Shown piece after piece: positions 132 to 64,000 of a stretch of 64,000 bases of DNA (the first letter of the stretch is position 1; every line of letters starts with the position of its first letter). Under the pieces are notes generated by a model. That model was not told where the DNA came from, did not search any database, and saw nothing but the letters and a program-made list of their open reading frames with translations. The translations under genes were made by a program, and so were the position numbers. The stretch lies in assembly GCA_965178125.1 (NCBI GenBank), contig OZ237754.1:248001-312000 (forward strand). The letters are read 5' to 3'. The DNA comes from Bilabrum cf. latius. Its lineage: Eukaryota.

Positions 132-1163
132 ATGGCATCTATTGCAGACTCGTCGCTTGGATCAACTGCGTTGTCAGATATATACGAATCGGATTAGGAG
201 AGCTTGCACGGAATTATCACCGTCATCAAGAAGTCAGGGCAAGATGGAGGTTCATTCGAGATGGACCAGGACAGCATCCTGATTGGGCGGTAAGTTCAGT
301 ATCCTAATCGGACGTATCTCGTGTACAGCTATTTATCAATATCATGATAATAGTTGGCTGCCAGAATTTGCTATATATACCATGAATGTGCTGTTCAGGT
401 TGCCAGAACAGTCCACCACACCGCGTGGCTCTTGTGCTCTTGACTGCCTTTCGCAGGTCTGAAGACGCCAACATTCGCATTCGGGCCCCTACAATCTCCA
501 GGTCTCATGCGAGTCTTACCGTGGGGTCAAATGGCGCTGTTTGGATCAGGAACTTGTCGAAAACGAAGGCAGTGCACGTGAACGACGAGAAGTTCGGCGC
601 AGACGGCCAACGACCCCTTCGCCAGGGTGATATCTTCAGCGTAGGGGACAGGAAGTTCCGCTTTGATTATCGTGAGATATTGTCATGAGTTTGAGTGGGG
701 TAGCTGAGATCAGGTACATCAGACTACTCCTGATCATCGCGCAGCGTCACGTGACAGAACCCCATCCATGCTCTCTTTCTTGAGCTCGCAGCAGAGGACA
801 TGGAAGGAAGCGAGGCCGGCCCTACCGGTACCTTCCGCCCTCCAAAAGCCCCCAAGATGACCCGCTTCGAGGAGGGCGAGCCCACCATCGATCTCGCCGC
901 GCAGGCCGGCGGACACGACGCACTGCGGAACGCCACCGCGGCGGCAAACCGCAGGAAGAGCCTTCCCTCCGGCGAGAAGCGCATGCCCACTGTGCGTACG
1001 CCCGGCCCTGTCGCCGCGAGGGCCGCTCTCGCGAGCCAGGCTCCCATGGAGGAGGACGAGGAAGAGTCGGGGCAGGGGCAGGGGAGCGGCTAGGGAGTGT
1101 CACAGCTCCGGCCCACGCCCGCCTCCGCGAAAAGGCAGCTGGTCATGGCGTCATCATCATCAG

Positions 1164-1194
<31 letters not shown>

Positions 1195-4100
1195 AGCAGG
1201 CACCTCTGTGGAACCCGCGATGGAGGAACAGTCGGAGGTACAGCGCGATCTGCAGCGAGAAGACGTCAAGGATGAGGATGAGGATGAGGAAGGCTCCGCC
1301 CCGGCCGCCCGCCGTGAATCTTTTTCTCGCAGCAAGTCGCAGATGGTAAGGCTGAGGGAACTTTCCAAGGCCTCCCAGGTGAGTTCAATGGAATCTAGTG
1401 CACCAAAGTGCAATTCAGTGACATTGTATGGCACGTTTGCCTTGGACCCACACAGGAATCGCTTGCGCTACGGTTCTGCGTTTAAAGCCAATTCCGAATC
1501 GAATCGAAGTAACCGACTGTCTATTGGACCTGTTCGCTATCCGCAGATCGCAAGGCAGGCTGAGATGGAGGCCGCAAGCAGCACCGAAGACAAGGCCGTT
1601 GAGACGGCGCTGGCCCGCCAGGGGGTTCCAACCCCGATCCGTCGGGCCATCCACAAGAGGAGAATCAGCGCAGGCAGAGACATCGCCCCGCACATGGAGG
1701 CTGCCGCTGCTGCTGCTGCTGCTTCATCGTCGTCGTCGTCGGCCCAGGGCGCAGCGCGCACAGTGCCTGTCAAGGTCGTGGTGGACAACACCTCGGCTGC
1801 CTCTACAGGAGGCAGGTCGGGCGAGGAGGCGCCGCCCATGCGAATGCCCAGGGCGCTGCCCACCCCGGTCCGCAAGGCAATCAAAAAGAGGCGGAAGAGC
1901 TCGGGAGGAAGCACCGCACCCGCCGCCGCCAGCATGTCGCAAGAGTCAAGCGGTAAATCCGCCGCCGGCAGCAGCATCCCCACCCGAATGGCGCTGCCTA
2001 CTCCGGTCCGGCGTGCCATCCAGAAGAGGCGCCCTGCCGTGAGTCCCGCGCAGCCCCAGGCAGCCATGGAAGGGATCAGAACGGCCGGTTCTTCCTCTTC
2101 GGCTGGGCAGCCCCGCAAGGCTCTGCCCACGCCCTTGCGCAAGGCAATCAAGAGCAAGCGAAGGGGCAGCACCTCCGAAGCAGCAGCTGCTGATGGGCCA
2201 ACTGCTCGTCGCGGGCTGCCCACACCTGTGCGGCGCGCCATCTAGTCGATGCGCGTGCCCAGCGCGAAGAAGGCTCCGGCATCTGCCATGATGTTGCATG
2301 ATGAAGTAGAGGACGAGGAAGCCGAAATCGACATGGCTGAGGAGGAGGAGGAGGAGGAGGAGGAGGACGAGCGCCAGCCCATGCGACGCGCGCTACCCAC
2401 TCCAATGCGGCGAGCCATTCAAGTTCGTCGCATCAGTGGGGCAACGTAGCAGGGCAACCGGCGGGGTGCTGCTGCTGCCCAGAGCGCACGGCCAGCACGG
2501 CGCGTGTCCTTCGCGCCTCCCAAGGTGCGCGTGTTCCAGGAATACACGAGCGATGTCTCCGCGGCGCAGTCGCCTGGGTCCGCGGCCGGCTCTGCCTCGA
2601 TGATGTCTGCTGACGGCGAGGACACGGCGGCGTTCGAGGGCTTCCGGCGCATGATGGCGGCTGCGCGTGCGGGCGAGATGGATGCTCGTCGGGAGTCTGT
2701 CGCGTTCAACGCGTACAGGGACATGATGGCTGCGATCCGTGGCGATGGGGAGGAGGACGAGGTGGCTGATGCCGGGGTGGAGATGGAGGGCGATGTGTCC
2801 ATGCAGGATGCGCCGTCCATGCGCCGGGCACTGCCCACTCCGATGCGGCGTGCGATCCAGGGACGGCGGTACAGCTCTGGCTCGTCCCGCTCGCGGCGGT
2901 CGTCGGCGGGCAGGCAGCAGCAGGCTCAGGCTCAGGCTGTGGCTGAGTCGGTGCGTCGTGGCGTGCCAACTCCTCTGCGGCGGGCGATCGAGAGCCGCCG
3001 CTTCAGCGTGGGCACGTCCAAGTCTGCGGCGCAGTCGCCTGGGTCCGCGGCTGGCTCTGCCTCGATGATGTCTGCTGACGGCGAGGACACGGCGGCGTTC
3101 GAGGGCTTCCGGCACATGATGGCGGCTGCGCGTGCGGGCGAGATGGATGCTCGTCGGGAGTCTGTCGCGTTCAACGCGTACAGGGACATGATGGCTGCGA
3201 TCCGTGGCGATGGGGAGGAGGACGAGGTGGCTGATGCCGGGGTGGAGATGGAGGGCGATGTGTCCATGCAGGATGCGCCGTCCATGCGCCGGGCACTGCC
3301 CACTCCGATGCGGCGTGCGATCCAGGGACGGCGGTACAGCTCTGGCTCGTCCCGCTCGCGGCGGTCATCGGCGGGCAGGCAGCAGCAGGCTCAGGCTCAG
3401 GCTGTGGCTGAGTCGGTGCGTCGTGGCGTGCCAACTCCTCTGCGGCGGGCGATCGAGAGCCGCCGCTTCAGCGTGGGCACGTCCAAGTCTGCGGCGCAGT
3501 CGCCTGGGTCCGCGGCTGGCTCTGCCTCGATGGTGTCTGCTGACGGCGAGGACACGGCGGCGTTCGAGGGCTTCCGGCACATGATGGCGGCTGCGCGTGC
3601 GGGCGAGATGGATGCTCGTCGGGAGTCTGTCGCGTTCAACGCGTACAGGGACATGATGGCTGCGATCCGTGGCGATGGGGAGGAGGACGAGGTGGCTGAT
3701 GCCGGCGTGGAGATGGAGGGCGATGTGTCCATGCAGGATGCGCCGTCCATGCGCCGGGCACTGCCTACTCCGATGCGGCGTGCGATCCAGGGACGGCGGT
3801 ACAGCTCTGGCTCGTCCCGCTCGCGGCGGTCATCGGCGGGCAGGCAGCAGCAGGCTCAGGCTCAGGCTGTGGCTGAGTCGGTGCATCGTGGCGTGCCAAC
3901 TCCTCTACGGCGGGCGATCGAGAGCCGCCGCTTCAGCGTGGGCACGTCCAAGTCTGCGGCGCAGTCGCCTGGGTCCGCGGCTGGCTCTGCCTCGATGATG
4001 TCTGCTGACGGCGAGGACACGGCGGCGTTCGAGGGCTTCCGGCACATGATGGCGGCTGCGCGTGCGGGCGAGATGGATGCTCGTCGGGAGTCTGTCGCGT

Positions 4101-6913
4101 TCAACGCGTACAGGGACATGATGGCTGCGATCCGTGGCGATGGGGAGGAGGACGAGGTGGCTGATGCCGGGGTGGAGATGGAGGGCGATGTGTCCATGCA
4201 GGATGCGCCGTCCATGCGCCGGGCACTGCCCACTCCGATGCGGCGTGCGATCCAGGGACGGCGGTACAGCTCTGGCTCGTCCCGCTCGCGGCGGTCGTCG
4301 GCGGGCAGGCAGCAGCAGGCTCAGGCTCAGGCTGTGGCTGAGTCGGTGCGTCGTGGCGTGCCAACTCCTCTGCGGCGGGCGATCGAGAGCCGCCGCTTCA
4401 GCGTGGGCACGTCCAAGTCTGCGGCGCAGTCGCCTGGGTCCGCGGCTGGCTCTGCCTCGATGGTGTCTGCTGACGGCGAGGACACGGCGGCGTTCGAGGG
4501 CTTCCGGCACATGATGGCGGCTGCGCGTGCGGGCGAGATGGATGCTCGTCGGGAGTCTGTCGCGTTCAACGCGTACAGGGACATGATGGCTGCGATCCGT
4601 GGCGATGGGGAGGAGGACGAGGTGGCTGATGCCGGGGTGGAGATGGAGGGCGATGTGTCCATGCAGGATGCGCCGTCCATGCGCCGGGCACTGCCTACTC
4701 CGATGCGGCGTGCGATCCAGGGACGGCGGTACAGCTCTGGCTCGTCCCGCTCGCGGCGGTCATCGGTGGGCAGCGCAGCGTCATCTGCGTCGTCGGTGCG
4801 GCCTGCCACAAGTCCGGTTGCCCCGAGCGGCATGCACGTGTATTTCGACGACAGCGGCCACTTTGTGCGAGCCGAGCCAATGGGGGAGCAGGAAGAGGCG
4901 TATGTCGCCACGATCCGCAAGCCCAGCTATGTTCCTCGGCGGCGGGCAAATGGTGTCATCAGCAGCGACATGAGCGGTTACGGTGCCGAGGAGGAGAGCC
5001 TCTTTGAGGAAGGTGACGAGATGGCCGAGGAGGAGGAGGGCTTCATGGGCGCAGATGCCGAGTGGGAGGAGGAGGGTGTGGAGGACGAGGAGATGCCCCT
5101 GGCTGGGCCCTTCGAGGAGCTGGGCCCCATCGCCAGTGCGCGGCGCCGGTCATCCGTGGGCAACCGCCACCTCTTTTTCGACACGAGCGAGTCCTCCATC
5201 GGAGAGATGAGCGGGGCGCATGACGAGTCAGGGGCCTCGATGTCCCGTTCTCGTCTCAGCAGCGCCTCGGCTGGCTCTCGCGGGTTTGCAACTGCCGAGT
5301 CGAACGACGCCGACCACACGGCCCAGTCGGCTGCCTCCGCGCTGAACGAGACAGAGGAGGACGGAGAGGATGATCACGGCAACGAAGAGGAGTATGAGGG
5401 GGAGGACAGCATTGGTATCCGGGCCGCTGCGGCGATCCAAGCAGCCCTCGCTGCCGAAAAGCGAGCGGGTCTGGGCGGACCTCGCCGGGTGTCGTCGGGC
5501 GAAATGATCCAGGACGAGGCGGATGATGATGTCGAGTGCGAGGCTGAGTACGAGGAGGAGGAAGGCATGGCCGACGACCAAGATGAGGACGAGGAGGAGA
5601 TCGCCATCGACGTGATGACACGTATCACAGAGCGAACAGTAGAGACTGACGACGAGGACACCATGGGCGTGGGTGCCGCGTCGGCCGTTGGGACTCCTGC
5701 CAGGGCGCTGATGCAGTCAGCGAGGCGGAAGTCGGTGCGGACGGGAGGACAGAAGCGCCGCAGGTCCTCCGTCGCTGGTACCGCCGCCACATCTCCGGCC
5801 GGTATCCGAGATGGGGCTCCCTCGGCCAAGAAGGCACGGACGCTCTCCTCCTCCTCCGGCAGTGGCACTCACTCGGCCGGTCGGGATGGTGAGGACCAGG
5901 ACCAGGACCACTGGTCGGTAGCCGAGCTCCAGGGGTGGACCTACGCCGCCCTCCGCAAGACGTGCAAGGAGCTCGGGCTTGGGGCGGCTGGCAAGAAGGT
6001 CGACCTGGTCGGCAGGCTGCTCGAGTTCCAGGCCGATGCCATCGATGCCATGGAGGGCGGCGACGCTGTGGAGCAGCAGGAGCACGAGGTGGCGGGCGTT
6101 GAGGACACGGCGGAGCGCGGTGCAGCCAACCAGTCAGCAGGAAGCCGTGCAGCAGCCGAGGCAGCGCCGGGTTTCGAGGACGTGCCGGGTTTCGAGGACG
6201 TGCCTCGCACCGAGGCCGAGCTGAGCAAGATGAAAGCGGTAGAGCTCCGGAAGCTATACAAGCAGGTGATGGGCAAGACCACCTCGCTGCCCAAGGCCCA
6301 AATAGTAAAGGATCTGCTCGAGTACTTGCAACCCGCGGGTACAAACGCCGTGGAGGAAGGGATCGAGAGCGAAGAGGACGAGTAGGCGGAGGCAGCATCT
6401 GACGACGGCTAGGACGAAGGGACAGCGGCCGAGGCCTCCAGCGAGTACAAGCCCGTAGATGAACTCCGCAGCAGCATGTCGTTTCGGGAGGTGCAGAAGT
6501 ACGCCAAGTCGTGCGGCGTGGCTGCACGGGGCAGCAAGGCGGTCATCATCGCGAGGTACGAGAAGTTCCTGGCCCACATGGGCACCGAGGAAGAAGAAGA
6601 AGAAGAAGAGACGGGGGAGGATGAAGTAGAGGACGTGGAGGAGGAGGGGGCAGAAAGTGACGAGAAGGACGAGGAGGGAGAAGTTGCTTGGGCCCGGCTC
6701 AAGTTTACTGAGCTGGTGGATGCTGTGGCTGAGCGAGTGAACGAGCTGGAGGATGGGACTGGGGCTGTCGTCGTCTAGCAGAAGTGGAGGCTGCGGAAGA
6801 CTGACCTAGTGCAGCTACTGTCAGACGGCTTCGGTGCCACTGCCGGCATGTCTGCCGAAGATGCCAAGGCTGCGGTGGACAGTGTGTCCAAAAGTAGCAT
6901 CATCTGGGCATGA
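132..6913 (+). CDS. Ki-67-like FHA-domain protein with PP1-docking RVxF motif, 155-aa tandem repeats and C-terminal SAP/HeH-like domains; join(132..289,457..671,792..6913), ~2164 aa with TAG=Gln
   Basis: ATG at 132. Spliced FHA reads LHGIITVIKKSGQDGGSFEMDQDSILIGR/SEDANIRIRAPTISRSHA...VNDEK...LRQGDIFSVGDRKFRFDY. Track ORFs at 800, 1097, 2249, 2504 and 6476 share one frame and are separated only by TAG (in-frame TAGs at 195, 1091, 2243, 2447, 6383, 6410, 6776). Ends at TGA 6911-6913. SAP-like motifs near 5912-6030, 6221-6325 and 6476-6570. Confidence 0.85.
290..456 (+). other. Spliceosomal intron 1 (GT-AG, 167 nt) of the FHA gene
   Basis: Donor CG|GTAAGT, pyrimidine tract and TTCGCAG acceptor. 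Splicing restores the FHA 'IGR-S' motif in frame. Confidence 0.85.
672..791 (+). other. Spliceosomal intron 2 (GT-AG, 120 nt) of the FHA gene
   Basis: Donor GTGAGA directly after the FHA end (FRFDY), CTCTCTTTCTT tract and CGCAG acceptor. Removes the in-frame TGA at 686-688 and keeps the frame into ATG 800. Confidence 0.7.
2558..4767 (+). repeat. Coding tandem repeat, 465-bp (155-aa) unit, ~4.75 near-identical copies
   Basis: GCGGCGCAGTCGCCTGGGTC recurs at 2561, 3026, 3491, 3956 and 4421 (exact 465-bp period). Copies differ by only a few SNPs. Confidence 0.97.
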
Positions 6914-7417: not shown

Positions 7418-10400
7418 TCACACATTGCGCTTTCCTGCACCACTGGAAGGCAGTTCAACTCTGCCTGCTCCATCGAAGTACAAGCCCATGAAGGACCTAC
7501 GTGGGGCTCCGGTCACAGTCAACGACACGTTGTGCTGCTTCCCGTGGTCAGGGCCAAATCCGCACGGCACAATGTCTGCGATGAATCCATTGAGCGTGTT
7601 CGCATTGCGGCCACGGGGCGCGTTGTAGCTGGGTTCCATCGGACAATCCCGGCCATCAATCGATAGCTGAATGCTGCTGTTGAAAGAGGCCGGAACCTGT
7701 CGGTCAAAGTCCGCGAACAGAAAGAGTCGGTAAACGCCGAGCCAAGGGGCCACCAGGTCGAACGCATCCCAGGGCATCGGGTAGGTCTCATTGCGCTCAG
7801 ACATGGCAGACCACACCGCGTCAGGGATCGCGATCTAGGCCGAGCGCGACCCAGTCGTAAGTGTGGGGTCGGCCGGGAGCACAGTCTTTGACAGGGGCCA
7901 CGCAGAGCTTCCATCCATCCGTGGACCGCCAGAGGCTACCCCCACCATGGCCTCGTTCTTGGTCCTGGACACTCGCCACAGTCGTGCATCGCGCCCGTCC
8001 AGAGGCAAACCAGCCAACGACTCTCCGCAGCGCTTCGTAGCGATCAACGTGCCGTTGCGAGGCCACAGCTCGGTGACATCGAAGAGTGTGGACACAGACA
8101 CGGTGCCGCAATCAAAGCCCAGCCGTGCGTCAAGAACAAGCTCACCCGGGGTTTCGGTAGAATTCGGGGCAGGGTTGAACAGGAAGATGACCCCTTCGTT
8201 GCTCTAAATTGCGAAAGAGCCGTCTACAGAAAAACGACTCGGCTCCCCACTCGGCACGACACGGAATGCGCCTGAGCGCTGGGCTTCGGACACGGTTGCG
8301 TCGGATGGAGTTGCACCGGATAGCGGCTTGGTATGCCGGAGAAGCTGGATGTTGTCGTCTGCAAACTGCAGCATCCAACGCAGATCGGTCTGCAGCCAGG
8401 CAGGCAGCAGCTCGTACTCAAGCAGGTCTCTTGCACCCTGCTGGCAGATGACCGAGTTGAGCGGCGCGTGGGCGAGCGAGCTGAGCAGCGAGTAGCGCGA
8501 CCCAAACCAGTCAAAGTCCCTGACGACATGGTCTACCCCACGGCCAGACCCGTCAAGGCCCCGGTCGCTCTGATGGAAAGCAAAGCCGGGCATGGCGCTC
8601 GGAGGGCAGAAGAGCGCATTTGCATACAGGTAGTTCTGCCTCCGTGCTCGGTTCCCAGACATGCGGTCCGTCCTGGGATCACCGAGGAAAGCAGAAGAGC
8701 CCCACGTCTGCGCCTGCTCATCGGTCATCAGCGGCTCGGCGTATGATCCTGCCACCCACATCCACGGGCCCCATTGGTGGTTGAGTTGCCGGTTGTCGAT
8801 CACGAAGTTGGGCACAGTGGACCGCAGTACGGAGAGCACCCGCCTCCACCCCGCCCACTGCTGGTACATTGACCTCGTCGGGTCGTTCGTGAACGTGTAG
8901 TCGAAACCCGCCCCCTAGGATCCGATGAGGGCAGTGAAGTTGAGAATCTGGTCGATGAACCAGGATTGGAACGAGTCGTCTCCGATGGATGCTTCCTGCC
9001 TGCCTCCCCCAGCTGGGTGCCACCAGCTCTGGTTTCTTGCAAAGGCAAGGTTGGGATAGATATAAGGCATCACGCGCGATCCATGAGCCTTGCCGTAGTC
9101 CGAAGCAGTCGATACAGTGGGATCGACAGAGTAGCCAGGGCCTGGATACCATGTGCCCTCACGCAACTGCTCGCCGTAGCCCATCCACAGAACCTCTTCC
9201 CAGCCCCAGCTGTCCGTCGCGTTCGCGAAGGAGCTAAGCCTGGAGTTGTGCGGGGCATACAGGGTTCTTTCGACATTCCAGCCCCCGTTTCGCTCAAGAA
9301 TCCTGTGGTACTCTCCCGGCTGATACTAGTACGAATGCTGCGGGCCACCGCCGGGCGCGCGGAGACTAGTGCCGTTGTCCCATTCGACCGCCGCATCGAT
9401 CTCGAAGTCGTTCTCGGTCCAGGCCACGTTGACTGCAAGGGCACCCTCGTCGTAGAACCACCCTGCTCTGGGGGTCGCTCCGATGTACCACGGAAACGGA
9501 CATGCGTCCACCTCAGATCCCATATCGTCTGACCGTCCCAGCCTCGCCGCACGCCAACCCTCGAACCGCCGTGCAGCGGACTCTCCTGCGTGCGGCCGAT
9601 GGGGGGCGATGTAGAACGCATCGGCAGCCATCCTCATGGCATCGCGCTCGGCCAAATCGATTCTCATCGGTGACTGAGCCAGGTGCTGCATGGCTGCCGG
9701 TACGATCGCGTCGGCGTGTGCGGCGCTCAGGCTTCCGTGCGTCCCGTGCGTTTCCGACTCTGACGAGTCCCTGCCGTCTCCGTCTCTCGACTCGCTTACA
9801 TCAGACCCAACGTAGTCGTACGCAAAACCAGAGAGTGGAACCAGCGCCGTGATCGCCCTGTCGCTTGCAAACAGCGGCTCGTACCCCGCCGGCGCCGCCC
9901 CGATGGCGGCAGGAAATCCCACGCTGCCCCGGTTCAGCGAGGCACGAAGCATGGGCTCATACAAGAGCGACACGGTGACAACTGCGCTGCCTGTGCTAGA
10001 ATCATTGGCGATGCGGGTTATGGCACCGGCGTTCTGCAGTCCTACGGCCAGCGAAGTGGCGGGTTGAACGCTGCCAAGGACAAAGGGAGACGCCGAGGAG
10101 GTGAGCCGGAGGAAGGCGGCCAAGTCGCCGCCGTACTGCCGTGGGACTGCTGTGGACGCGAGGTGAAGCTGGCCTGGTGGTATAATGCCACTTCTAGCTG
10201 CTGGTTCCTCTACTAGGACGCTCCCAAGCCTGGCGCGATCTAGTACCGACACGACCGAGACAAGGTCCCATGGCGCCGTGTCCGACGCGAGCGTGGCACC
10301 GGTGGCGGATGGGCTGGGCCGCTTCTGGCGCTGGGCTACTCCAGGGGCATACGACACGAAGAGCTACTTGGTAACAAAAGACCACCCATCGCGGAGTTCG

Positions 10401-11032
10401 TACGTGGCATTGACCACGAAATCTTGGAAGCGAAACAGAAGCGAAGCCGAGTTGCTCGTGTGCCGATATGGGCCTTCCACCGACAGTTCTTCCGGTCCCA
10501 TCCACGCCGAAAGTGTCTAGTTACCAATTCCTATAATGAAACCATCGGTGACGTTGGCCAGGTCCGCGGATGCTTTGACTTGGCTGCTCCTAGGCTCGCT
10601 AGTACTGGATCTCACCTCTTGAATACCACGGCTGGCAACGCTGATGATAGCCTCAAAATTAGCATTGCCTATCACTACTGTTGATAATTCATTTGATTGG
10701 ACGGCCGGTGGGGCAACGGGTGGTTCAGAACGTCTCATTTCAGAGCATCGACAATCTGCTTCCGTTGTCGACTCCCAGAATAGCTTTCGCCAGCAATTGG
10801 CCTGCTAGATGCTGGTATCACACGATGTTCGCTGAACAACAAATCCAGCACATAGGGGATCAGCTTCACAGGACGAACCACAAGCAGAAATCGGCGGCAA
10901 CTCTGAAGGTATCTTCAAAGGACTGTATGCTTGGTCTCCATTGCGATGGTCAGAACCTGTTTCGCAGTAGAATTTGGCAGTACTGAGCTAAGCTACTGCA
11001 ATGAATAATAGACACGCGGTCTGACATATCAT
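7418..11032 (-). CDS. Secreted protein: signal peptide, PAN/Apple-like Cys domain, putative glycoside-hydrolase-like region; ~1204 aa with TAG=Gln
   Basis: ATG at 11032 (MICQTACLLFIAVA*LSTAK), then FYCETGSDHRNGD...C...C...LCAGFVV...CWRK...CRCS. Six track ORFs lie in one frame joined only by TAG (8 in total). Trp/Tyr/Asp-rich segments GFDY, VIDNRQ, WGPWMW, GVIFLFNP. Ends at TGA 7418-7420. The hydrolase call is tentative. Confidence 0.7.
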
Positions 11033-11365
11033 GCTTGCACCTATGGAAGGGGGGCGGGGACACTCAAGACTCTGATCCGAGTTGATCGATTCTGTGCTTC
11101 CCATTGAGCAGCTTTCTGCTTGTATGCAAGATGATGTGGCTTCAATGTTGTAATTTGGCAGTTCTTTACGAAGAAATCACGCAAGAATGGGTTGCAACTA
11201 ACCTGCTCGACGACAGGTGAGCCCAAGCCTCTGCGCGTGGGCGGGATCCAACAGCTACTGCAGCCGCTGTTGGGATAGCCAGTCCTGCCAATACGCAATT
11301 ATATACCAGTGTCCAAAATTAGCGTAGCTATGCCAATGCTACGGTCAGCATCAAGAGGTATGACC

Positions 11366-24076: not shown

Positions 24077-24210
24077 GGTATTGCTGCCGTACCTGATCCT
24101 GCTTTCCAACCCCATGTTCCAACTGAAACAGCAAAATATGCACTACGTTGGTAGATTTAAACCGATCTATCTCGCATGAGGCGAAGAAACGCCGACTGCA
24201 AGGGCGTAAA

Positions 24211-50106: not shown

Positions 50107-50204
50107 AGATCGGATCGAGGATCGGATCGGATCGGATCGAGGCTCAGGGGTCGAGGATAGGATAGGATAGGATAGGATAGGATAGGATAGGATAGGATCG
50201 GATC
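50107..50204. repeat. Pentanucleotide microsatellite (GATAG)8 with flanking GATCG units
   Basis: GATAG x8 at 50156-50195. GATCG units at about 50108-50139 and 50196-50204. Lies between two convergent stop codons. Confidence 0.95.
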
Positions 50205-51153
50205 ATGATGAGCCGCCGTACGAGTCGCTGCCAGTCGTCTTCGCCCCTGGCTTGGGCCAGACCATGGCCATGCCCCGGTGGGCGGTCTCCACCCCGAGGA
50301 ACAGGAACGCGTTTGCGACGAAAGCGCGCAGGACCGCTGCGGACCAGCCCCTGTACAGCATCGCGGGGCCCTCCTTCCGGACGAGACCCAAGAACCGTCG
50401 CAAAGGGCCCTCCCTCTCCCCCTCCCTGCCCCTCCCGCTTTGCTGCCCTTCCGCGCCGGCGGCGCCTTGCGTCTGCAGGAAGGATTTAGCCACGTCAAAG
50501 GGGTACACGATGGACCAGGCCGTGGATCCCGCCATGCCGCCGCAGACAAAGACCTCGAGGCTGGTGAGCTCGGACTGGGACTGCCGGCCCATGAGCGCTT
50601 GCGCTGCCCGACAGTAGGAGCGATATGACAGGAAGAAGAGCGTGTTGAATGGCAGGTCTCTCGCAAGCAGAGCCGACAGACCCACCGTTGGTGCACGCAG
50701 GCCGTACATGCCCCATACTTCACGGAGCGACTTGCGCAGCGCCGGAAGGCCTTTGAGATTGCGCTCGAACTACATTCTGCACTTAATGAGCTCTGGAAAG
50801 CATATTGATGTGGCAGAAAAGAATCCAGATGCTGTTCCAGTCAGCGCGTGCTGCCATAAGGTTAACTTGTCCTCGTCACCAGACCCGTCCTCGGTAAGCA
50901 GCCGGCAAAACACGCCATTTGCACTAAACAGAACCGTGTTCTCCACCATAGCTGAAGCTAACGCCGGCATTGCCCCTCGCCATAGTGCAAAAAGGCCTTC
51001 TGTTTTCAGCATGGACCTGGATGCTGCCACGAGAGAGTGCCCATAACGAGCGCCCTGAGTTGCAAGCCTCAGCTTCAACGTATCCAAGGGAAGGCCTCCG
51101 TACACGAGACAGACTGAGCCAAAGGCCCCTGCAATCGAATCCCTGACATCCAT
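50203..51153 (-). CDS. Mitochondrial carrier (SLC25), ornithine/carnitine carrier-like; 316 aa
   Basis: Three signature motifs: PLDTLKLRL, PELIKCRM*, PFDVAKSFLQ. Also EGLFALWRG, ENTVLF, RDLPF, LYRG, RAFVANA. Single TAG at 50770. Ends at TGA 50203-50205. Confidence 0.92.
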
Positions 51154-51371
51154 GTTTAATCCCAACGCATCCTTGGTCCAGATGCTCGAATGAAAGCTTT
51201 TCAGCGGCACTGGTGTATCGAAGTTCCGCAACTCTGCGCGGCGACATCGGCCTCAACGAGCAAATCGATAGCATTCACGCTCGTGGCACGGTCCCTGGAG
51301 ACAGGCACCTCTTGCTGCACGAGAGCTGGGTTTACGTGCTGTTTGATTTGCAAGCCGTCAGCTAAAATCCG

Positions 51372-54018
51372 ATGGGATGCGGTGCATCACAGCTTCAAGT
51401 CACTGTGAGTTCAGACGTCGGTTGCTCTCGATGCGTTCGACCCAGCTACCGCTCATGCTGTGTATCGCTGCTTGTAAATTATCCAACAAAACAAACCAGC
51501 TTACTGCTTTCTAATGTGTATGCTGGACCGCCTCCATTCGCAGCCCGCTGACTCTGGGGATCCGTCTCAGTCTGCCGCCTCTGGAGCAGGTACTGATGAG
51601 TCTAAGGCTGCGCAGTCCACCATTATTGCTGGCGGCAAGGTAGCTGGTGGAGCTACGTTGCCAGACATGGAGTAGCGAATCGCAGCTGGTTTGGAGGCGC
51701 AGCGCGTTATGACTGGCGGGCGCGAGCGTCGCCAGGAAATTCGTGCAGAATCGTATGCCAATGCCCGAAGGCAGGCCAGGTCCAGCGGGTTTGGCGGGGG
51801 CCTCGGGCACCGCTTTCCTCAAATCAAGAAGGCAGAAGATGAGCGAATCCAGATTCTGGAGGCGTTGGCTCACATCTTCCTGTTCAGCAAGCTCAACGCA
51901 GAGGAGAAGCAGATGCTGGTGGACGCCATGGAACGAGAGAAATTCCCCGCAGGGACCGATATCGTGAAGCAAGGCGATCAAGGCGATATGTTCTACATCA
52001 TCAAGTCCGGCCGGGCGAACGTCCTGGTGGACGGCAAGGAAGTGAACTAGCTGGACAAGGGCGACCATTTTGGAGAGCTCGCGCTGCTGTACGCCACGCC
52101 ACGCAATGCCACCATCCGAGCGGCGTTTCCCACGCAATGCTTCTCGCTGCCTCGTGCGGTGTACCGCACCATCGTGGTCGCCTCTTCCTCCAAGACCGCT
52201 CAGGAGAACCGGCACTTCCTATCAAGGGTGAAGCTGCTGCGCACCGCGCTCAACAAGCAGCAGGTCAGCACGCTCGCTGGCGCACTGCAGCAGTTCGAAT
52301 TCAACCGGGGGGACACGATCGTCAAACAGGGCGATCCAGGCGCGGTGTTTTATATCATCCGCAAAGGAAGCGTGGAGGTGCAGGTGCGATCGAAAGACGC
52401 AGCGGCAGGCGGTGGAGACGAAGAGAAGCAGCAGAAGAAGAAGCAATCGCTGGTGCCCCCGGCAATCGAAGGAGAGGACGAGGAGCTGGAAGCCAAGTGC
52501 GGGCCCATCGCACAGGCCCTGGAGCTGTCGGCCGGTGCGTTCTTCGGCGAGCAGTCGCTTTTGAACGACAAGCCCAGGGCCGCCACGGTGAGAGCCAAGG
52601 AACACGTCACGGTGCTGGCGCTGCTCCGCGACGAATTCGAGGAGATCTTGGGGCCCTTGCAGTCGCTCATGCGCAAGAACCACTCGAAGAGGGAGCTGCT
52701 GGGCAGACAGTTCCAGGCGGATGCTCAGGTGCACCGTGAGGCAAGCGACCTGGGAGACGAGTCGCCTCGCGCGTCTGGGGCGGACACGACATCTGCCGCT
52801 GGTACGTCAGCGAGAAACGGGGCGGCAGGTGCTGGCGGTGCGACCGGTGCCCGTGGGGAACTTGACGACATCGGCACGGCGGTGGAAGCAGACGAAGAGG
52901 AAGAAGACGATGAGGCACCCAAGGGCATGACACCGATGCAAGCTGCCCAAGCGGCGGCTCGCGGCGGCAGGGTGGGTGGGATGATGAAGGCCAAGGCCTC
53001 CTTCCGGTCGGAGAGGCCAGACATCTCGCTAGAGTCGTTGGAGAAGCTAGCGGTGCTCGGCGAGGGAGCCTTCGGGAGCGTGAAGCTGGTCCGAGTGCGG
53101 GGCACCAGCGAGGTGTACGCTCTCAAGCAGATGAGCAAAGCAAGGATCGTGAAGACAAACCAGAAGCGCAACGTGCTGAACGAAAAGGCCATCATGATGC
53201 GGCTCAAGCACCCGTTTATCCTGCGCCTGATCAAGACCTTCAAGGACAGAGACTGCCTCTACCTACTCATGGAGTTCCTGCAAGGCGGCGACTTCTTCGG
53301 GCTGCTTTCGAGGCAGCCGCACGGCAATCTGCGGCGGCGGCAGGCAAACTACTACGCTGGCATCGTCACGACTGTACTGGAGCACGTGCACAGCCGATCC
53401 ATTGTCTACAGAGATCTCAAGCCCGAGAACCTGGTGCTTGATAGGAGCGGGGTAATGAAGGTAGTTGACTTTGGATTTGCCAAGTATCTTCCTCCCGGGC
53501 AACGCACCACCACTCTGTGCGGAACGCCTGAGTACTTGGCTCCTGAGCTGGTGCAGGGCACCGGGCATGGACAAGGGGTGGACTATTGGGCCCTGGGGAT
53601 CCTCATCTACGAGATGCTGGTCTCGTACAGCCCGTTTGCAGACCACGAGAACAACGAGCAGCTCAAGATCTACAAGAACATCCTGAGAAAGAACCCCAAG
53701 TTCCCCAGCCGAGGCACGCACATCGACAAGGATTCAAGGGACCTCATCGAGCGGCTCCTGAACAAGAACCCCTCCAAGCGGCTGGGTTCGCTCAGGGGAG
53801 GCGCACGTGACATCATGAATCACCCCTGGTTCAGCACGTTTTCCTTCGACAAGCTGATGCAAGGTCAGATGAAGCCGCCGTTCAAGCCAGACGTGAAGGG
53901 GAATACGGACGTGAGCATGTTTGCCATGGACGATGACGAAGAGGACGAGGACCGCGTGCGGCACGATCGGATTGAGCCGTACAAGGATGACGGAACAGGT
54001 TGGGACGAAGCCTTCTGA
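51372..54018 (+). CDS. Cyclic-nucleotide-dependent protein kinase (PKG-like: 2 CNB domains plus AGC kinase), N-terminal MGCxxS acylation motif; join(51372..51404,51544..54018), 835 aa
   Basis: Exon 1 encodes MGCGASQLQVT. CNB cassettes FGELALLYATPRNAT and FGEQSLLNDKPRAAT. Kinase motifs GEGAFG, YALK, YRDLKPEN, DFG, TLCGTPEYLAPE and an AGC tail. TAGs at 51673 and 52048. Ends at TGA 54016-54018. Confidence 0.92.
51405..51543 (+). other. Spliceosomal intron (GT-AG, 139 nt) of the kinase gene
   Basis: GTGAGT donor, CTAAT branch-like site at 51511, TTCGCAG acceptor (same ending as intron 290-456). Phase 0 and in frame. Confidence 0.8.
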
Positions 54019-54354: not shown

Positions 54355-57300
54355 TTACAATCCAAATCTGGCCAAAATGGTCCTCCTTACCGGCTTCATG
54401 TGCCCGTTGTAGCATCCATTGGCTTCCGTCCAAGCGTGCAAACCGCCATTGTCAATGGCTAGGCCAGCAGGCCACCCGCCCTCCGGCAACCCTTTCAGCA
54501 TGCAAGCCTATCTGCACTCCGAGAGAACGTCACTAGCCTAGGAAGCGGCTGCTGACTCGGAAGGCATCACCACCAACACCACAATCTGTGTCGAACCGTC
54601 AACCAAAGATGAAGTACCGTCGGTGAGCTGAGCTGCATGCCGTTCGCCCACGGTCTCCATGCAGCTGCGCCACTTGCCAGCTGGTACCAACGCGACAACG
54701 CAGTCAGCTATGGAACTCAATTCACTGCAGGCCGCCTGTACGTCTGCTGGAGACAAAACAAGCTATGATCTGGACGTCACGGTGGATGCAGCACCAGTAC
54801 TAGCACCAGCTTCAGCAGCACCACCAGCTCCAATCAAAGGAATTACAGCCCCAACTCTTTCCAGTACACGTAACCGCCACTCCCACACCGGTCTGGCCCT
54901 GCCCGAGCAACCGTCAGGCGGTATAGCGCCCGCAAGGTACTTTGCGGCAAACTCCCGAGTTGTTTTATCATCTTTGCGAGGGATCGCATCTGCTGGCACA
55001 ACGAGAGCTGCTTCGTCATGCACTACCACTCCAGTCAGAGGGTTGACTTGCTTCAGTTCCCACGCAGCCACATCACCCGTGGCCATCCAGCCGTTGCCGA
55101 GAAAGCATGCCTCGTCTCCTGGCTTCGGGCGCAGGTAGCCTCCACCTTCAGCCAGCAGCTGGGGCGTCTTCACCACAACCTCTCCGACCAGAAGCACAGA
55201 CCCACGTTGCGGATCCTTCGCTTCCAAAGCAACCCTTGCTGCACCGCTTGTACTTGAAAGACATGCTTCGTCTGCGCATGGCGTCAGTGCAACTTCCGCG
55301 CCCGCTGCGTCGGGCCGATGCACGGCAGGTGGGCCCGACGTCCACTCTGCAGCTGCTGACTCTGGGTCCCATGCCTCCAGCGACGCGGGCTATCCGTCTG
55401 CAAGCAGGGGCCTGAGTCGGAGTTGCGCACCGCTGTATACCTTGCCGTCTTCGCAGATGGCTCCTGCCTCCGTGGAGCCGTACGACTCGTGCAGCGCGGT
55501 GGGAGCCAACAGTCTCTGGGCAAAGGCTTGCACCTCGTGCGTGGTTGGCGCCCCGCCTGTCACCACAACCCGGAGTCTGCCCCCGGTCAGCTAGCGCACA
55601 CGTTGCAAGGCCGATTCGCTCGCAGTGTCACGGTCTCTCTCCGAGGCGGCCGTCCCGGTGAGGCTGTTCATCTCTCGAGAGAATACTGCCCGCAAGCCGC
55701 TCCAGATCCGAGGCGGGCCAGCAAAGGCAGTGGGTTTCAGGGCCTGAACCTGCTTCATCAAGCCGAGCACGCCGTTGTCGGCTAGCCCGTCGGTTTTAAC
55801 TAAGCCCTGCTTTTTGGACTTTTCGTGCTGAAGCCAGTTGCTGTGGTCGTAGTGACAGAGACCTACCCTCCCACCATTGCACACGAATTCCCACAGTCGG
55901 AAACGATCGGAAGAATGCGACAACGGGATGAAAGATGCAGTTACCAACGGGCAGGCCGTGCTGTTGGCAATAGATGCAAACTGGCGCGAAGTTACCTTGA
56001 CTCCTTTGGCCCTCCCACTGCTCCCGCTCGTGTACAGCAGGGTGAAGATGGAATCGGGACCACCTCGTGGTAGCGCGTCTGGATCATCAAGACCAGTCGT
56101 CAGACAGCGTGCACGCGCCTCATATGTGCTTTCAGCGGACGCATCTCCCTGTTCGTTGGTTGCTTGTTCGTCCAGCAGCAGCTCGCGCATTCGCCTTGCG
56201 CCTGTCCCTTGGCGTGCAGGCGAAACAGCGGCGTCTAAATGCCGGCGAACAGCAGCATCGAACCATTCGACGGAGCATCCAGCCTTTCTCAGTGCATCTG
56301 TGTGCTCTCCTGCAGGTGGCTGGTCACCTGCTGCGCCTGCACCTGAGCCCCTGATCACGAATAGGGTGGTGACCTTGCTAATCCGCCCTGCGATGCGGCC
56401 GGCAGCGAATCGATCGACTGCTGTGCCGGTCTCGCAGACGTGGATCCGCGCGTCGCAGTGCTCCATCATGTCCGCGGTCATGGCATCGCTGAAGGAAGCA
56501 TGCACGCCAACGGGTGCCATCCCGGCCAGGCAGGCGCCGAAATCACTCACAACGAACTCGACGCGGTTCGCCGCTCGGATGGCCACCGTTGCTATGCTTG
56601 TTTCTCTCGCCGTTCCAGCGCCGGAGGCAGCAGCTGGTGGCTCCACCTATCGATCATCGACATCGGCAGGCCCACGGTCTAGGGCCTCCTTGAACGCCAA
56701 TGCGGCAGCTCTAGCCAGCGCCCCGACTTGAAAATGAGTGAGCCAGTGAAAGTGTCCGACCTGCCACATGCCTCCGACAGCAGACACCTCGTTGCTCTTT
56801 GCTGCGCTGGGCAAGACTGGCAAACTTGCGCCTGCATCGGCGACTGCGCATGGTGTTTCATTGCGTGACTGGGCGGCAGCTGACGAAGCATCGCCTTCTC
56901 CTGAATCGGAATGGGAATCACGACCGCCACCGGCTTGTATAGGCGCTCCTAGAATAGACGGGTGTGGGCACAGGATAGCAGGTACGTTGTCCGAGTGGGC
57001 CAATGCTTGTACCGCAGATGCAGCTGCCCCCGGGCCACTCGCAGCTGGTCCTGGTGCCGGTGTCGGACCTGAGTGCTAGGCGGTCAGCGATTTTGCTGCC
57101 GCAGACACCGCGTCTGCCGGGTCCATGCTGCTTGCTTCGGGAACGGATGCGAGCAATTCAGCAGCATTCATCCTCCACTGGTCAGCGTCTTGCAGCAGGA
57201 GCCCAGCCACCCCATTTGTGAGGGATTGGGGAGAGGTCGGGGGGACCGGCAGCGTCATCGCAACCGCCTCCTCGCCGATCGGTATCCCTATGCACGGCCG

Positions 57301-58347
57301 GTTCTCGTACGTTAGCAGTGCACGATGGAGGATTCCAGCGGGCGAACGATACTATCCAGGCGCGGGGTGAACGGATATATGAGGAAACAACGAGGCGTCC
57401 TCTTGGACCCAGAATCCGCAAGATAATGGCTCGATGCGAAGGAGCAGGTGCAGACCCAGGCAGCCCATGTGCCTGACGGGCGCGTGCTCAGAAGATAGCA
57501 TAGCTGTGACACACGAGGATAGACTCCCAGGGCCGTGCAGAACCACTCGATGCGCCCTATCGCAGTGCAAGCGAGCATTCGCGGCAGGATCCGGCGACGC
57601 GCTCGGAATAAAATCACCGGCATCCAGGCATCGCCAGCGCAGAGTCCCAACACCGCGATCCCACGACTATATTGGTACACCAGTCAACTCGCAAATTGAA
57701 ACATTGATACTTCGACCGGTTTCAACGTCCTCGATACCATCTCCCTTGAAGTCTGAGCGATCTCCGCCACGCCTGAGAAGCAGGTACTGCAGCTGCCAAT
57801 GAAATGGAGCCCCCACCTCTGCGCATTTAGCTTTGTATAACTCCAAAGATGAATTGTAGTCGTCTTGGGCATCACTCAGTTCCTTCGGCCGCGCGAGGCT
57901 TGCTGCGTTCTCCTCCTTGACCCGTGCAATAATGCCCGGGATCACTGCTCGACACTCCGAAAGTATGGAGTCAACCTATCGGAGGCTACCAATTAATTCA
58001 TTTGCGTATTCCATCGCTGCAATTGCGGTCGCAGCCTCTGACAAAGCGATCGTACTAGCAATAGATCGCGCGGCAACAGCTTTGGCACGGCCCATGTATT
58101 CATCCAATGCGGCTGAAACTTTTTCATTTCCGATGCCAGAGCTATCTTTGAGCTTACTAGACTAGGACGCCAGTGATACTTCATACTGCTGGTCAGCTGT
58201 CCTGAATCGAGCAGCCGAGGCCTACAGCAACTCGACGGTGCGATTCAGATCGTCAACGGATCCTACAGAAACGTCGGAAGGTGCATAGCGGAAGGTGCGC
58301 CAGCTAAGAGCCTCGGCCATTCTGTCGTCCGCTCCAGAATTTGCCAT
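54355..58347 (-). CDS. AMP-dependent synthetase (long-chain acyl-CoA ligase / CAR adenylation-domain-like) with helical N-terminal extension; ~1330 aa with TAG=Gln
   Basis: LYTSGSSGRAKGV P-loop, FIPLSH, GGRLRVVVTGGAP, ESYGSTEAG, GWMATGDV, and C-terminal WTEANG...KPVRRTILARF directly followed by TAA 54355-54357. One frame with 12 TAGs. Confidence 0.82.
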
Positions 58348-58466
58348 TTTTTGAGGTCTGTTTTGAATGTGGCGAGTTCTGAGCCCAAGGCTAGTGCAGC
58401 TCCGGATCCTCCCGATGGTGGTCCCCATTCTCGTGGGAGAGGCTTCGCATTACACAGATTGAATGT

Positions 58467-62894: not shown

Positions 62895-63024
62895 GGCAGC
62901 GCCAATCGTGGCGAATGTATTGGCGATTCGGGGCGCAAAATGTTGCGACCAACTCGATGACTTGCCGATCGCGCGGCAATAAATGCTCGCTTCGCGCTTG
63001 CACTGCCGCACCCTCTTTCCTATA

Positions 63025-64000
63025 ATGGAACCTCTCATTGCCGGTACGATTGAAAAAGTTACCACTGGTTATGTAGTTGAAAGCGCAAAGAATGCTGCTG
63101 CGAAGGCAGCTCGAGACTGGGGTGATGCTCAGCAAGAAGGGAGCAGGTTGGAGCAAGGCATCTTGAAATCGATGCAGTCTTTGTCTAAGCACCTTAAAGT
63201 CATAGCGGAAGTCAAGGCTCACGTGAAAGGTCAAATTGAGCAGAATAGATAGCTCGCCAAGCGGTTAAATTATCTCCGAGAGGCAGAAATGGAAGCTGCA
63301 GCAGCCGCGAGCGCTGCAAACGAGCAGCTGCGCTCAGTCAACCGAAAAGCAGAGCTGATGCGCAGAAAAGCAGATGAGATGGAAAAGCATATTCTATTAC
63401 AACAGCAAGACGCTGCTCGGGCTGACCAAGATGTACGGCTCGCCGAGCAGGAGGTCCTCAGGCAGCAATCGCGCTCGCACCAGGTGCAAGAACTTTGGCG
63501 ATCTCAAGGCCGTGCTGTAGCGACTCCCAAGCAGACACCCCCGCCAGTGATTTCTCAACACGATGTGTGGACTAGCCGTGTTTGGTCCAATTCCAGCAGC
63601 ATATAGAGCCGCGTCTCGGTTGCCGATGCTCGCTCGGTTGGCTACAACCCCGAGGCTGCTACTGCAGCTGGTCTAGCCACAACCCCTCGCAAGGCAGCCC
63701 ATAGGCCGGAACCCCGGAGGCATCTCGATCAAATCGGACAGAAAAGGCCGCATACTGCCATACAAGGGCGGTACAAATCGGTGCTCGGCGCGATCACCAG
63801 CAGTCCTGGTGCAGTGAAGCTCAGCCCGCAAGCCGAGCCTGCTTTGCGTGGAAGGTAGGGGCTTGGCGTAGAACCGCCGAAGCAAACAAGCACAAACAAT
63901 ACGGGGCGCATGTACTCCAGGCAGGGAGGAGGCAGCCGTCGCACGCGGGCCCGGCGCTCCGATGCCAGCTCCAGCGTCGAGAGCGCCGCGTCGTCTCAGT
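63025..64000 (+). CDS. Coiled-coil protein, 3' partial
   Basis: ATG 63025, heptad-like A/E/Q/R/K-rich sequence. Frame stays open to the window end across TAGs at 63250, 63604 and 63856. Confidence 0.65.

What the first reader, a model, noticed from the sequence alone, without database searches (positions are those of the whole stretch)
132..64000. Non-standard nuclear genetic code: UAG is a sense codon while UAA and UGA remain stops
Seen: 13 of 14 genes contain in-frame TAGs (about 110 by hand count) and none contains an in-frame TAA or TGA. One 12.7-kb frame has 20 TAGs and one 13.1-kb frame has 19, with no other stop. The interrupted genes include conserved, motif-intact ones (mitochondrial carrier, Rh, PheA, kinase, SPX). 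Complete genes end in TGA (11) or TAA (2); in the acyl-CoA ligase the TAA follows directly after the family's C-terminal motif. Established: in nuclear codes UAA and UAG are nearly always reassigned together (ciliates, diplomonads, some ulvophytes). UAG-only reassignment is known from very few lineages, such as the fornicate Iotanema, an uncultured rhizarian and some phyllopharyngean ciliates. Inference: this GC-rich, intron-poor genome does not resemble typical AT-rich ciliate DNA, so it may be an independent origin of this code.
Basis: partly seen in the sequence, partly recalled or inferred. Interest (0 to 1): 0.96.

Follow-up and report, generated by a model that had tools for sequence, protein, structure and literature searches.

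The report
UAG read as glutamine, nuclear genome
This compact, GC-rich eukaryotic DNA uses the stop codon UAG as an ordinary glutamine codon while UAA and UGA still end genes, a rare genetic-code variant that here seems to sit in a lineage where it has not been reported.

Summary
Fourteen frames tile 93% of the window. Together they hold 19,952 codons with 108 in-frame TAG, no TAA and no TGA. Eleven of the 13 complete genes end in TGA and two in TAA.

UAG most likely means glutamine.
- The TAG in the mitochondrial carrier lies where 77 of 80 homologues have Q.
- Against a syntenic metagenome relative, 5 of 9 well-aligned TAG sites face CAG or CAA.
- Near-identical database proteins show Q at 4 of 5 sites.

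Contigs from three runs skip a canonical 139-nt intron, which restores an MGCG start, and they keep 27 TAGs unchanged. This argues against splicing or editing, although the runs are not on record as RNA.

The metagenome relative has its own in-frame TAGs, and its genes end in TGA.

The code equals NCBI table 15, which is already known from Iotanema and a few ciliates. A single kinase tree places this organism beside the stramenopile Cafeteria. My literature searches found no such code reported in stramenopiles.

The suppressor tRNA, eRF1 and 18S could not be examined, because no genome is held. Verdict: a real feature, and a new member of a known kind.

The parts
800..6913 (+). g1, SAP-domain protein with 4.8 tandem copies of a 465-nt unit; 6 in-frame TAG; ends in TGA
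7418..11104 (-). g2, 1228-aa protein with no Pfam family; 8 in-frame TAG; ends in TGA. The nearest homologues have Q at TAG sites 247 and 730.
11366..24115 (-). g3, giant IPT/TIG-repeat membrane protein (4249 codons); 20 in-frame TAG; ends in TAA, with a TGA four codons further on
24442..28758 (+). g4, 1438-codon frame with no known family; 18 in-frame TAG; ends in TGA
28835..31480 (-). g5, fusion of SPX domain with AstE/AspA catalytic domain; 7 in-frame TAG; ends in TGA
31762..44838 (+). g6, paralogue of g3 (4358 codons) in inverted orientation, with blocks about 94% identical in DNA; 19 in-frame TAG; ends in TGA
45297..46862 (-). g7, Rh/ammonium-transporter family; 1 in-frame TAG; ends in TGA. 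Covered by a run X5 contig with no differing letter.
47010..48047 (-). g8, repeat-containing frame with no family; the only frame without TAG; ends in TGA
48567..49982 (+). g9, chorismate mutase/prephenate dehydratase (PheA) of planctomycete type. TAGs at 48954-48956, 49473-49475 and 49863-49865; ends in TGA.
50203..51153 (-). g10, mitochondrial carrier. Its single TAG (50770-50772) lies at the Q of the carrier signature, where 77 of 80 homologues have Q; ends in TGA.
51372..51404 (+). g11 exon 1 of the cGMP-dependent protein kinase (reads MGCGASQLQVT)
51405..51543 (+). 139-nt GT..AG intron. It is skipped in contigs of runs X5, X6 and X7 and present in the run X1 contig.
51544..54018 (+). g11 exon 2 of the kinase (3 cNMP-binding domains plus kinase domain). 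TAGs at 51673-51675 and 52048-52050; ends in TGA.
54355..58428 (-). g12, AMP-binding enzyme with a long N-terminal extension; 12 in-frame TAG; ends in TAA
58467..63038 (-). g13, frame with no known family (start uncertain; the X5 contig reaches only to 62949); 8 in-frame TAG; ends in TGA
62983..64000 (+). g14, frame that runs off the window; 3 in-frame TAG

Best explanation
The window is nuclear DNA of a compact, GC-rich (about 59%), intron-poor eukaryote. Its translation system reads UAG as glutamine and ends proteins only at UGA (usual) or UAA, which is the code of NCBI table 15.

Shown here:
- TAG sits inside long, otherwise open, conserved frames.
- TAG persists in spliced transcript-like contigs.
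- TAG aligns mainly with Gln in orthologues and homologues.
- A related organism from a metagenome shares the trait.

Inferred, not shown:
- A tRNA-Gln with anticodon CUA, one base away from the normal CUG, decodes UAG.
- The release factor eRF1 no longer recognises UAG efficiently but still recognises UAA and UGA.
- In a GC-rich genome where TGA dominates as terminator, UAG may have become rare as a stop before it was captured.
For: 1. Frames. The 14 frames hold 19,952 codons with 108 TAG, 0 TAA and 0 TGA. They cover 93% of the window. The 13 gene ends are 11 TGA and 2 TAA.

2. Amino acid.
- Mitochondrial carrier TAG site: Q in 77 of 80 homologues.
- PheA site 131: Q in 6 of 9 homologues.
- g2 sites 247 and 730: Q in the nearest homologues.
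- Window against the syntenic locus L001: 14 TAG-involving columns, 9 of them in well-conserved context. Those 9 comprise 5 Gln codons (4 CAG, 1 CAA), 1 TAG opposite TAG, and 1 each of Ala, Lys and Asn.
- Database proteins 93-99% identical to the window's show Q at 4 of 5 visible TAG sites and S at 1.
- Local context fits Q as well: GQGQGSGxG, and RRAIx where the repeats have RRAIQ.

3. Transcript. Contigs of runs X5, X6 and X7 (two studies) skip 51405-51543 (GT..AG), while the X1 contig keeps it. The joined form starts MGCGASQ, like the MGCG starts of homologues. The contigs displayed cover 27 of the 30 TAGs in 45000-64000 with no differing letter.

4. Relative. L001 carries 15 in-frame TAG in 2,431 codons, and its three complete genes end in TGA.

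5. NCBI table 15 reproduces the reading.
Against: - No tRNA gene is present in the window or in L001, and no genome is held. The decoding tRNA and eRF1 are therefore unseen.
- The two giant paralogues gave a mixed picture. Of 32 informative TAG columns, Arg faces TAG 6 times, and Gln and Ser 4 times each.
- A profile of 54 internal TIG repeats favoured no amino acid at 24 TAG sites. The best was T at +0.3 bits; Q scored -9.0 bits.
- At several TAG sites homologues are variable: PKG sites 54 and 179, and g2 sites 196, 967 and 1090.
- The runs taken as RNA are not on record as RNA, and the tool guesses 'probably DNA' for X5. An intron-less DNA allele is therefore not formally excluded.
- 'No gene ends in TAG' is partly circular, because the frames were defined with TAG open.
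- There is no peptide evidence.
Confidence: 0.87

Rival explanations
1. The ordinary UAR=Gln code (NCBI table 6): both UAA and UAG mean glutamine, and TAA is merely rare in a GC-rich genome.
For: UAR=Gln is the most common nuclear variant (PMC11687900, introduction). Only about 20,000 codons were examined here.
Against: There is no in-frame TAA in 19,952 codons, although CAA is used 201 times and TAG 108 times. If TAA related to CAA as TAG does to CAG (108/511), about 42 would be expected. Two genes end in TAA; one of these is followed by TGA four codons later. The 14 frames tile the window with gaps of 33-519 nt, so no gene is broken at a TAA. L001 has no in-frame TAA in 2,431 codons.
Confidence: 0.03
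2. An ambiguous code: UAG is glutamine inside genes but also terminates some genes, depending on context, as in Condylostoma or karyorelict ciliates.
For: Frames were defined with TAG open, so a gene that truly ends at TAG would look as if it ended at the next TGA or TAA. The last TAG lies only 38-50 codons before the end in five frames. C is the most common base after in-frame TAG, 41 of 108.
Against: In PheA the residues after the last TAG align with homologues to the very end. None of the 13 window genes or 3 L001 genes needs TAG as terminator. The base after TAG does not differ from that after CAG (chi-square p = 0.22).
Confidence: 0.05
3. UAG is a sense codon for an amino acid other than glutamine, such as Leu, Ser, Glu, Lys or Arg, as in other UAG-only lineages.
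For: UAG=Leu and UAG=Ser lineages exist (PMC11687900, discussion passages). In the paralogue comparison Arg faced TAG more often than Gln did, 6 against 4 of 32. The TIG-repeat profile did not favour Q.
Against: Q is found at 77 of 80 homologues at the carrier site. Q codons occur at 5 of 9 conserved orthologous sites against L001. Q appears at 4 of 5 sites in near-identical proteins. No other residue recurs at conserved sites.
Confidence: 0.04
4. The TAGs are not translated as such: they are removed by splicing, edited to CAG in the mRNA, or the genes are pseudogenes or assembly errors.
For: The kind of runs X5-X7 is not on record.
Against: The frames stay open across every TAG with no TAA or TGA. 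Contigs that carry a spliced intron keep 27 TAGs letter for letter. Independent runs and a metagenome relative show the same feature. The proteins have intact domains.
Confidence: 0.01

Closest known systems
NCBI translation table 15 ('Blepharisma nuclear'; TAG=Gln, with TAA and TGA as stops)
   Same: Translating with table 15 gives the same reading as the hand-made code TAG=Q. Only TAG is changed.
   Different: The table was defined for a ciliate. That its original assignment to Blepharisma was later questioned is my recollection, not something from a call.
UAG=Gln with UAA retained as stop in the fornicate Iotanema spirale and the ciliates Protocruzia tuzeti, Hartmannula sinica and Trochilia petrani (PMC11687900; PMC5304391 seen in search listing only)
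   Same: Same codon, same amino acid, and UAA kept as a stop.
   Different: Those ciliates prefer UAA as terminator (PMC11687900, abstract). Here TGA ends 11 of 13 genes. The genome here is about 59% GC and has long multi-gene contigs. The kinase tree places it next to a stramenopile, not among alveolates. That tree contains no fornicate or ciliate row that I can name.
UAG=Leu in an uncultured rhizarian and in TARA phyllopharyngean ciliates; UAG=Ser in the green alga Scotinosphaera (PMC11687900, discussion passages)
   Same: UAG alone is reassigned, uncoupled from UAA.
   Different: The amino acid here is Gln, not Leu or Ser.
UAR=Gln codes (Tetrahymena, Oxytricha, Hexamita, Streblomastix, ulvophytes, Amoeboaphelidium; NCBI table 6)
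   Same: A stop codon is captured for glutamine, presumably through a tRNA-Gln with a changed anticodon.
   Different: TAA is not a sense codon here: 0 of 19,952 in-frame codons, and two genes end in TAA.
Cafeteria roenbergensis (bicosoecid stramenopile), the nearest named relative in the kinase tree
   Same: Sister to the window clade with SH-aLRT 100. Best named hit of the kinase, 549 bits. GC-rich genome.
   Different: Cafeteria has about 70% GC and 1.67-1.89 introns per gene, and only its mitochondrial code is described as non-standard (PMC6972860, passages). The branches between the two are long (path 1.5 changes per column), so the relationship is distant.

Membership tests
UAG=Gln nuclear code with UAA and UGA as stops (NCBI table 15 type) | In-frame UAG inside conserved protein-coding genes | tested here: met
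   108 TAG in 19,952 codons. 13 of 14 frames carry TAG, including Rh, carrier, PheA, kinase and SPX genes.
UAG=Gln nuclear code with UAA and UGA as stops (NCBI table 15 type) | UAG positions correspond to glutamine in homologues | tested here: met
   Carrier site: Q in 77 of 80. Against L001: 5 Gln codons at 9 conserved sites. Near-identical proteins: Q at 4 of 5 sites. Two internal comparisons were uninformative.
UAG=Gln nuclear code with UAA and UGA as stops (NCBI table 15 type) | UAA is not a sense codon | tested here: met
   0 in-frame TAA in the window's 14 frames and in the four L001 frames. Two genes end in TAA. This covers the window only, not the whole genome.
UAG=Gln nuclear code with UAA and UGA as stops (NCBI table 15 type) | UGA is a terminator | tested here: met
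   11 of 13 window genes and 3 of 3 L001 genes end in TGA, and there is no in-frame TGA.
UAG=Gln nuclear code with UAA and UGA as stops (NCBI table 15 type) | UAG no longer used as a terminator | tested here: inconclusive
   No gene needs TAG as its end, and PheA homology continues past its last TAG. The frame definition makes the test partly circular.
UAG=Gln nuclear code with UAA and UGA as stops (NCBI table 15 type) | UAG present in mature mRNA (not spliced out or edited) | tested here: met
   Contigs that skip the GT..AG intron keep the TAGs with no differing letter. The displayed contigs cover 27 of 30 TAGs in 45000-64000. Caveat: the runs are not on record as RNA.
UAG=Gln nuclear code with UAA and UGA as stops (NCBI table 15 type) | A tRNA-Gln with anticodon CUA | not testable with these tools
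   No tRNA in the window or L001, no Rfam match, and no whole genome held.
UAG=Gln nuclear code with UAA and UGA as stops (NCBI table 15 type) | eRF1 altered in its stop-codon recognition domain | not testable with these tools
   eRF1 is not in the window, and no genome is held.
UAR=Gln code (NCBI table 6) | In-frame UAA used as a sense codon | tested here: not met
   0 of 19,952 in-frame codons are TAA, against 201 CAA.
Context-dependent stop/sense codes (Condylostoma type) | The reassigned codon also ends genes | tested here: inconclusive
   No case among 13 window genes and 3 L001 genes. The sample is too small and the test partly circular.
Stramenopiles, near Bicosoecida (placement of the organism) | Groups with named stramenopiles in gene trees | tested here: inconclusive
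   One gene only. The kinase clade (window, P0001, L001) is sister to Cafeteria with SH-aLRT 100, using a quick search without bootstrap, and the Cafeteria row was flagged for composition. Homologues of g2 and of the carrier carry no organism names. No 18S is available.

The most novel reading that the evidence does not exclude
This would be the first nuclear stop-codon reassignment in stramenopiles. It would be an independent origin of UAG=Gln (UAA and UGA kept) in a free-living, GC-rich, compact-genome lineage distantly related to bicosoecids. It would be shared by a small clade: the window organism, near-identical strains, and a metagenome relative at about 77-81% protein identity. TAG and CAG appear to exchange freely between these relatives. 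Because TGA rather than UAA is the main terminator and the genome is GC-rich, the origin would not fit the AT-pressure scenarios drawn from ciliates.
Probability: 0.4. Interest if true: 0.85.

Novelty: new member of a known kind. Interest (0 to 1): 0.74.

Why it matters
Nuclear codes in which UAG and UAA have different meanings are known from only a handful of lineages (PMC11687900). They are the test cases for how eRF1 can tell the two codons apart.

A further, apparently independent case would add a natural experiment:
- It has sequenced DNA, transcript-like data, and at least one diverged relative that shares the trait.
- Its genome is GC-rich with TGA as the main terminator, unlike the ciliate cases.

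There is also a practical point. Any annotation of this organism under the standard code will break most genes. Database proteins from its relatives are visibly truncated at TAG sites.

Tried and rejected
- No whole genome is held for the window. A genome-wide code inference and searches for the tRNA and eRF1 were therefore impossible.
I did not send that protein anywhere else.
- No RNA holder is listed for the stretch. The kind of runs X5-X7 is the tool's guess.
- The giant paralogues g3 and g6 were compared at 36 TAG columns. The result was 3 TAG/TAG, 4 Gln, 6 Arg, 4 Ser, 3 Thr, 3 Gly, 2 each of Lys, Met and Ala, 6 singles and 1 gap. This is uninformative, because most sites lie in diverged stretches.
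- A Codetta-like score on 54 internal TIG repeats covered 24 TAG sites. No residue was favoured: T +0.3 bits, Q -9.0 bits.
- PDB alignments of the carrier did not cover the repeat that holds the TAG.
- The base after TAG does not differ from the base after CAG (p = 0.22). This gives no sign of selection for a weak termination context.
- Cluster look-ups of ten carrier homologues gave no organism names. The eight homologues of g2 are unnamed.
- ARAGORN and Rfam found no RNA gene in the window or L001.
- Six literature searches and a look into a 2024 stramenopile review found no report of a nuclear UAG reassignment in stramenopiles. Subscription journals and supplements were not searchable.
- The other joints listed (45755-50280, 48095-48403, 52100-53411, 53432-53602) have sides of only 20-41 letters. 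I set them aside as chance or paralogue matches.
Full report
**What is in the window.** The 64-kb window is 55-63% GC and contains no N. Under the standard code its long frames are broken into many pieces. When only TAA and TGA count as stops, 14 long frames appear. They cover 93% of the window and leave gaps of only 33-519 nt.

With ATG-based models the 14 frames hold 19,952 codons with 108 TAG, no TAA and no TGA. Eleven end in TGA, two end in TAA, and one runs off the window. Counted stop to stop, the same frames hold 113 TAG. Thirteen of the 14 frames carry TAG.

In the five other reading frames of the same stretches, TAA plus TGA make up 1.0-2.8% of codons. Frames of 4,249 and 4,358 codons free of them cannot be chance.

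Pfam recognises these families:
- Rh/ammonium transporter
- mitochondrial carrier
- chorismate mutase plus prephenate dehydratase (PheA)
- a cGMP-dependent protein kinase with three cNMP-binding domains
- an SPX domain fused to an AstE/AspA domain
- an AMP-binding enzyme
- a SAP-domain protein
- two giant IPT/TIG-repeat proteins

**Are the TAGs in the mRNA?** One sequencing-run search found runs that hold the stretch. None of them is on record as RNA. I laid the contigs of four runs on 45000-64000.

Run X1 covers the region in two long contigs, 45000-50107 and 50210-64000 (broken only at a flagged repeat, 50108-50209), with no differences. Runs X5, X6 and X7, from two studies, give separate contigs. 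Their limits fall close to gene limits: 45171-46867 for Rh, 48557-50107 for PheA, 54327-58353 for g12 and 58446-62949 for g13.

All three of these runs join 51404 directly to 51544. This skips 139 nt with GT..AG ends that X1 retains. The joined sequence opens the kinase with MGCGASQLQVT, which matches the MGCG-type starts of its homologues.

I take this as spliced transcript sequence. That is an inference, because the tool's own guess for X5 is 'probably DNA'. The contigs shown cover 27 of the 30 TAGs in the laid region, and no differing letter was reported anywhere. So neither splicing nor U-to-C editing removes the TAGs.

**Which amino acid?** The clearest single site is the one TAG of the mitochondrial carrier. 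It sits at the last position of the signature P-x-E-x-x-K-x-R-x-Q, where 77 of 80 homologues have Q.

In PheA, Q is present at TAG site 131 in 6 of 9 aligned proteins. At site 434 the count is Q 3, E 3, L 1, V 1 and 1 gap. Site 304 lies in a variable insert.

In g2 the nearest homologues have Q at sites 247 and 730. At four other sites they have other residues, and at two there are gaps.

A metagenome scan returned locus L001 (8,778 nt, 56% GC). It carries PheA, the carrier and the kinase in the same order and orientation as the window. Protein identities to the window are 362/469, 233/328 and 661/819.

Codon by codon, 14 columns involve a TAG in one sequence or the other. Nine of them lie in well-conserved context, with at least 11 of 16 flanking residues identical. 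At these nine, TAG faces:
- CAG four times
- CAA once
- TAG once
- GCT, AAG and AAC once each

The other five columns lie in stretches that do not align.

Database proteins 93-99% identical to the window's kinase, PheA and carrier (P0001, P0121, P0241) read Q at four of the five window TAG sites they span, and S at the fifth. Two of them begin at an internal methionine. That is what a standard-code gene caller would produce if an in-frame TAG lay upstream.

Two internal comparisons did not help:
- Between the two giant paralogues, TAG faces Arg 6 times, Gln 4 times and Ser 4 times in 32 informative columns.
- A profile of 54 TIG repeats favoured no residue at 24 TAG sites.

Both comparisons involve old, fast-evolving duplicates. 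I weigh them below the orthologue evidence, but they are results against a simple picture and I record them as such.

**UAA and UGA.** CAA is used 201 times and TAG 108 times, yet no TAA is in frame. If TAA were a Gln codon used in the same proportion, about 42 would be expected. The TAA that ends g3 is followed four codons later by TGA. The frames tile the window without same-frame breaks. L001 likewise has no in-frame TAA or TGA in 2,431 codons, has 15 in-frame TAG, and its three complete genes end in TGA.

None of the 16 gene ends needs TAG. This test is partly circular, because the frames were defined with TAG open. The PheA alignment does continue to the C-terminus past its last TAG.

NCBI table 15 gives the same translation as the hand-made code.

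**Mechanism.** Three things are shown: UAG lies in open frames, it lies in spliced sequence, and it stands where relatives have Gln. The rest is inferred from what is established for other reassignments (PMC11687900, introduction). A tRNA with anticodon CUA would read UAG but not UAA. Together with an eRF1 that has lost UAG recognition, it gives exactly this pattern.

Neither component could be examined. No tRNA or Rfam family is in the window or L001, and no genome is held.

TAG makes up 0-25% of Gln codons per gene. It is lowest in g8, the kinase and Rh, and highest in g12, g5 and g4.

**Who is it?** The kinase's best named hit is Cafeteria roenbergensis at 549 bits.

I built a quick maximum-likelihood tree of 40 rows: the window, L001, and 38 of the 40 best hits. 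I left out P0025 and P0040 as short. The tree groups window, P0001 and L001 with SH-aLRT 100, and puts Cafeteria as their sister with SH-aLRT 100.

This is one gene, with no bootstrap and long branches, and the Cafeteria row was flagged for composition. Cafeteria has about 70% GC and 1.67-1.89 introns per gene, and only its mitochondrial code is described as non-standard (PMC6972860, passages).

Homologues of g2 and of the carrier bear no organism names. The placement 'stramenopile, distantly near bicosoecids' is therefore tentative.

The stretch is held by runs filed under three different coded organism labels. The organism may therefore live alongside others in culture.

**Comparison with what is known.** I read the abstract, introduction and discussion passages of PMC11687900. 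According to it:
- UAG=Gln with UAA retained as stop is known in Iotanema spirale, Protocruzia tuzeti, Hartmannula sinica and Trochilia petrani.
- UAG=Leu is known in a rhizarian and in TARA ciliates.
- UAG=Ser is known in Scotinosphaera.

The code here is therefore a known kind. What appears new is the lineage and the setting: a GC-rich, compact genome with TGA as the main terminator. Six full-text searches and one review found no stramenopile case. Subscription journals and supplementary files could not be searched.

**Verdict.** The feature is real. UAG is a sense codon, most likely glutamine, and UAA and UGA are stops. The trait is shared with at least one diverged relative. It is a new member of a known kind, of high interest to specialists in genetic-code evolution. 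Confirmation is pending on the tRNA, eRF1, peptides and a proper phylogenetic placement.

Noticed in passing
window 11366-24115 (-) and 31762-44838 (+): Two giant paralogous IPT/TIG-repeat membrane proteins (4249 and 4358 aa) lie in inverted orientation, 7.6 kb apart. Most of their length has diverged, but blocks of 534-1045 nt are about 94% identical in DNA, which suggests gene conversion.
   Followed up: partly
window 48567-49982 (+): The PheA (chorismate mutase/prephenate dehydratase) has its best named matches among Planctomycetota and Phycisphaerae at 41-47% identity. It also carries a low-complexity insert that the bacterial proteins lack. It looks like a bacterial gene acquired by this eukaryote.
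   Followed up: partly
window 2561-4779: A 465-nt unit is repeated 4.8 times in tandem at 98% identity inside the SAP-domain gene g1. Each unit encodes a 155-aa repeat with the motif LPTPMRRAIQGRR.
   Followed up: partly
window 51405-51543: This is the only clear intron seen in the 19 kb that were laid: 139 nt, GT..AG, eleven codons into the kinase. The spliced start MGCG looks like an N-terminal acylation site; that reading is from recall and was not tested.
   Followed up: partly
window 28835-31480 (-): An N-terminal SPX domain is fused to a C-terminal succinylglutamate desuccinylase/aspartoacylase catalytic domain. The two are separated by about 450 low-complexity residues.
   Followed up: no
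window 50108-50209: A short repeat lies between PheA and the carrier gene; the frame read on after the carrier gene's stop (minus strand) gives PILSYPILSYPILS. Read laying skipped it as a repeat, and the X1 contigs break there.
   Followed up: no
window 47010-48047 (-): g8, the only frame without TAG, holds about four copies of a motif of the form SAFERD(V/L)...RELL and has no Pfam family.
   Followed up: no
window 45200-54100 (runs): The same stretch is held, with no differing letters in the runs laid, by runs filed under three different coded organism labels. Small shares of its words also occur in runs labelled protist or algae metagenome. The organism may be a co-cultured or contaminating flagellate in some data sets.
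   Followed up: no
L001 6473-8776 (+): The fourth frame of the metagenome relative (768 codons, 6 TAG, runs off the contig) stands where the window has the AMP-binding gene on the other strand. Synteny therefore ends after the kinase.
   Followed up: no
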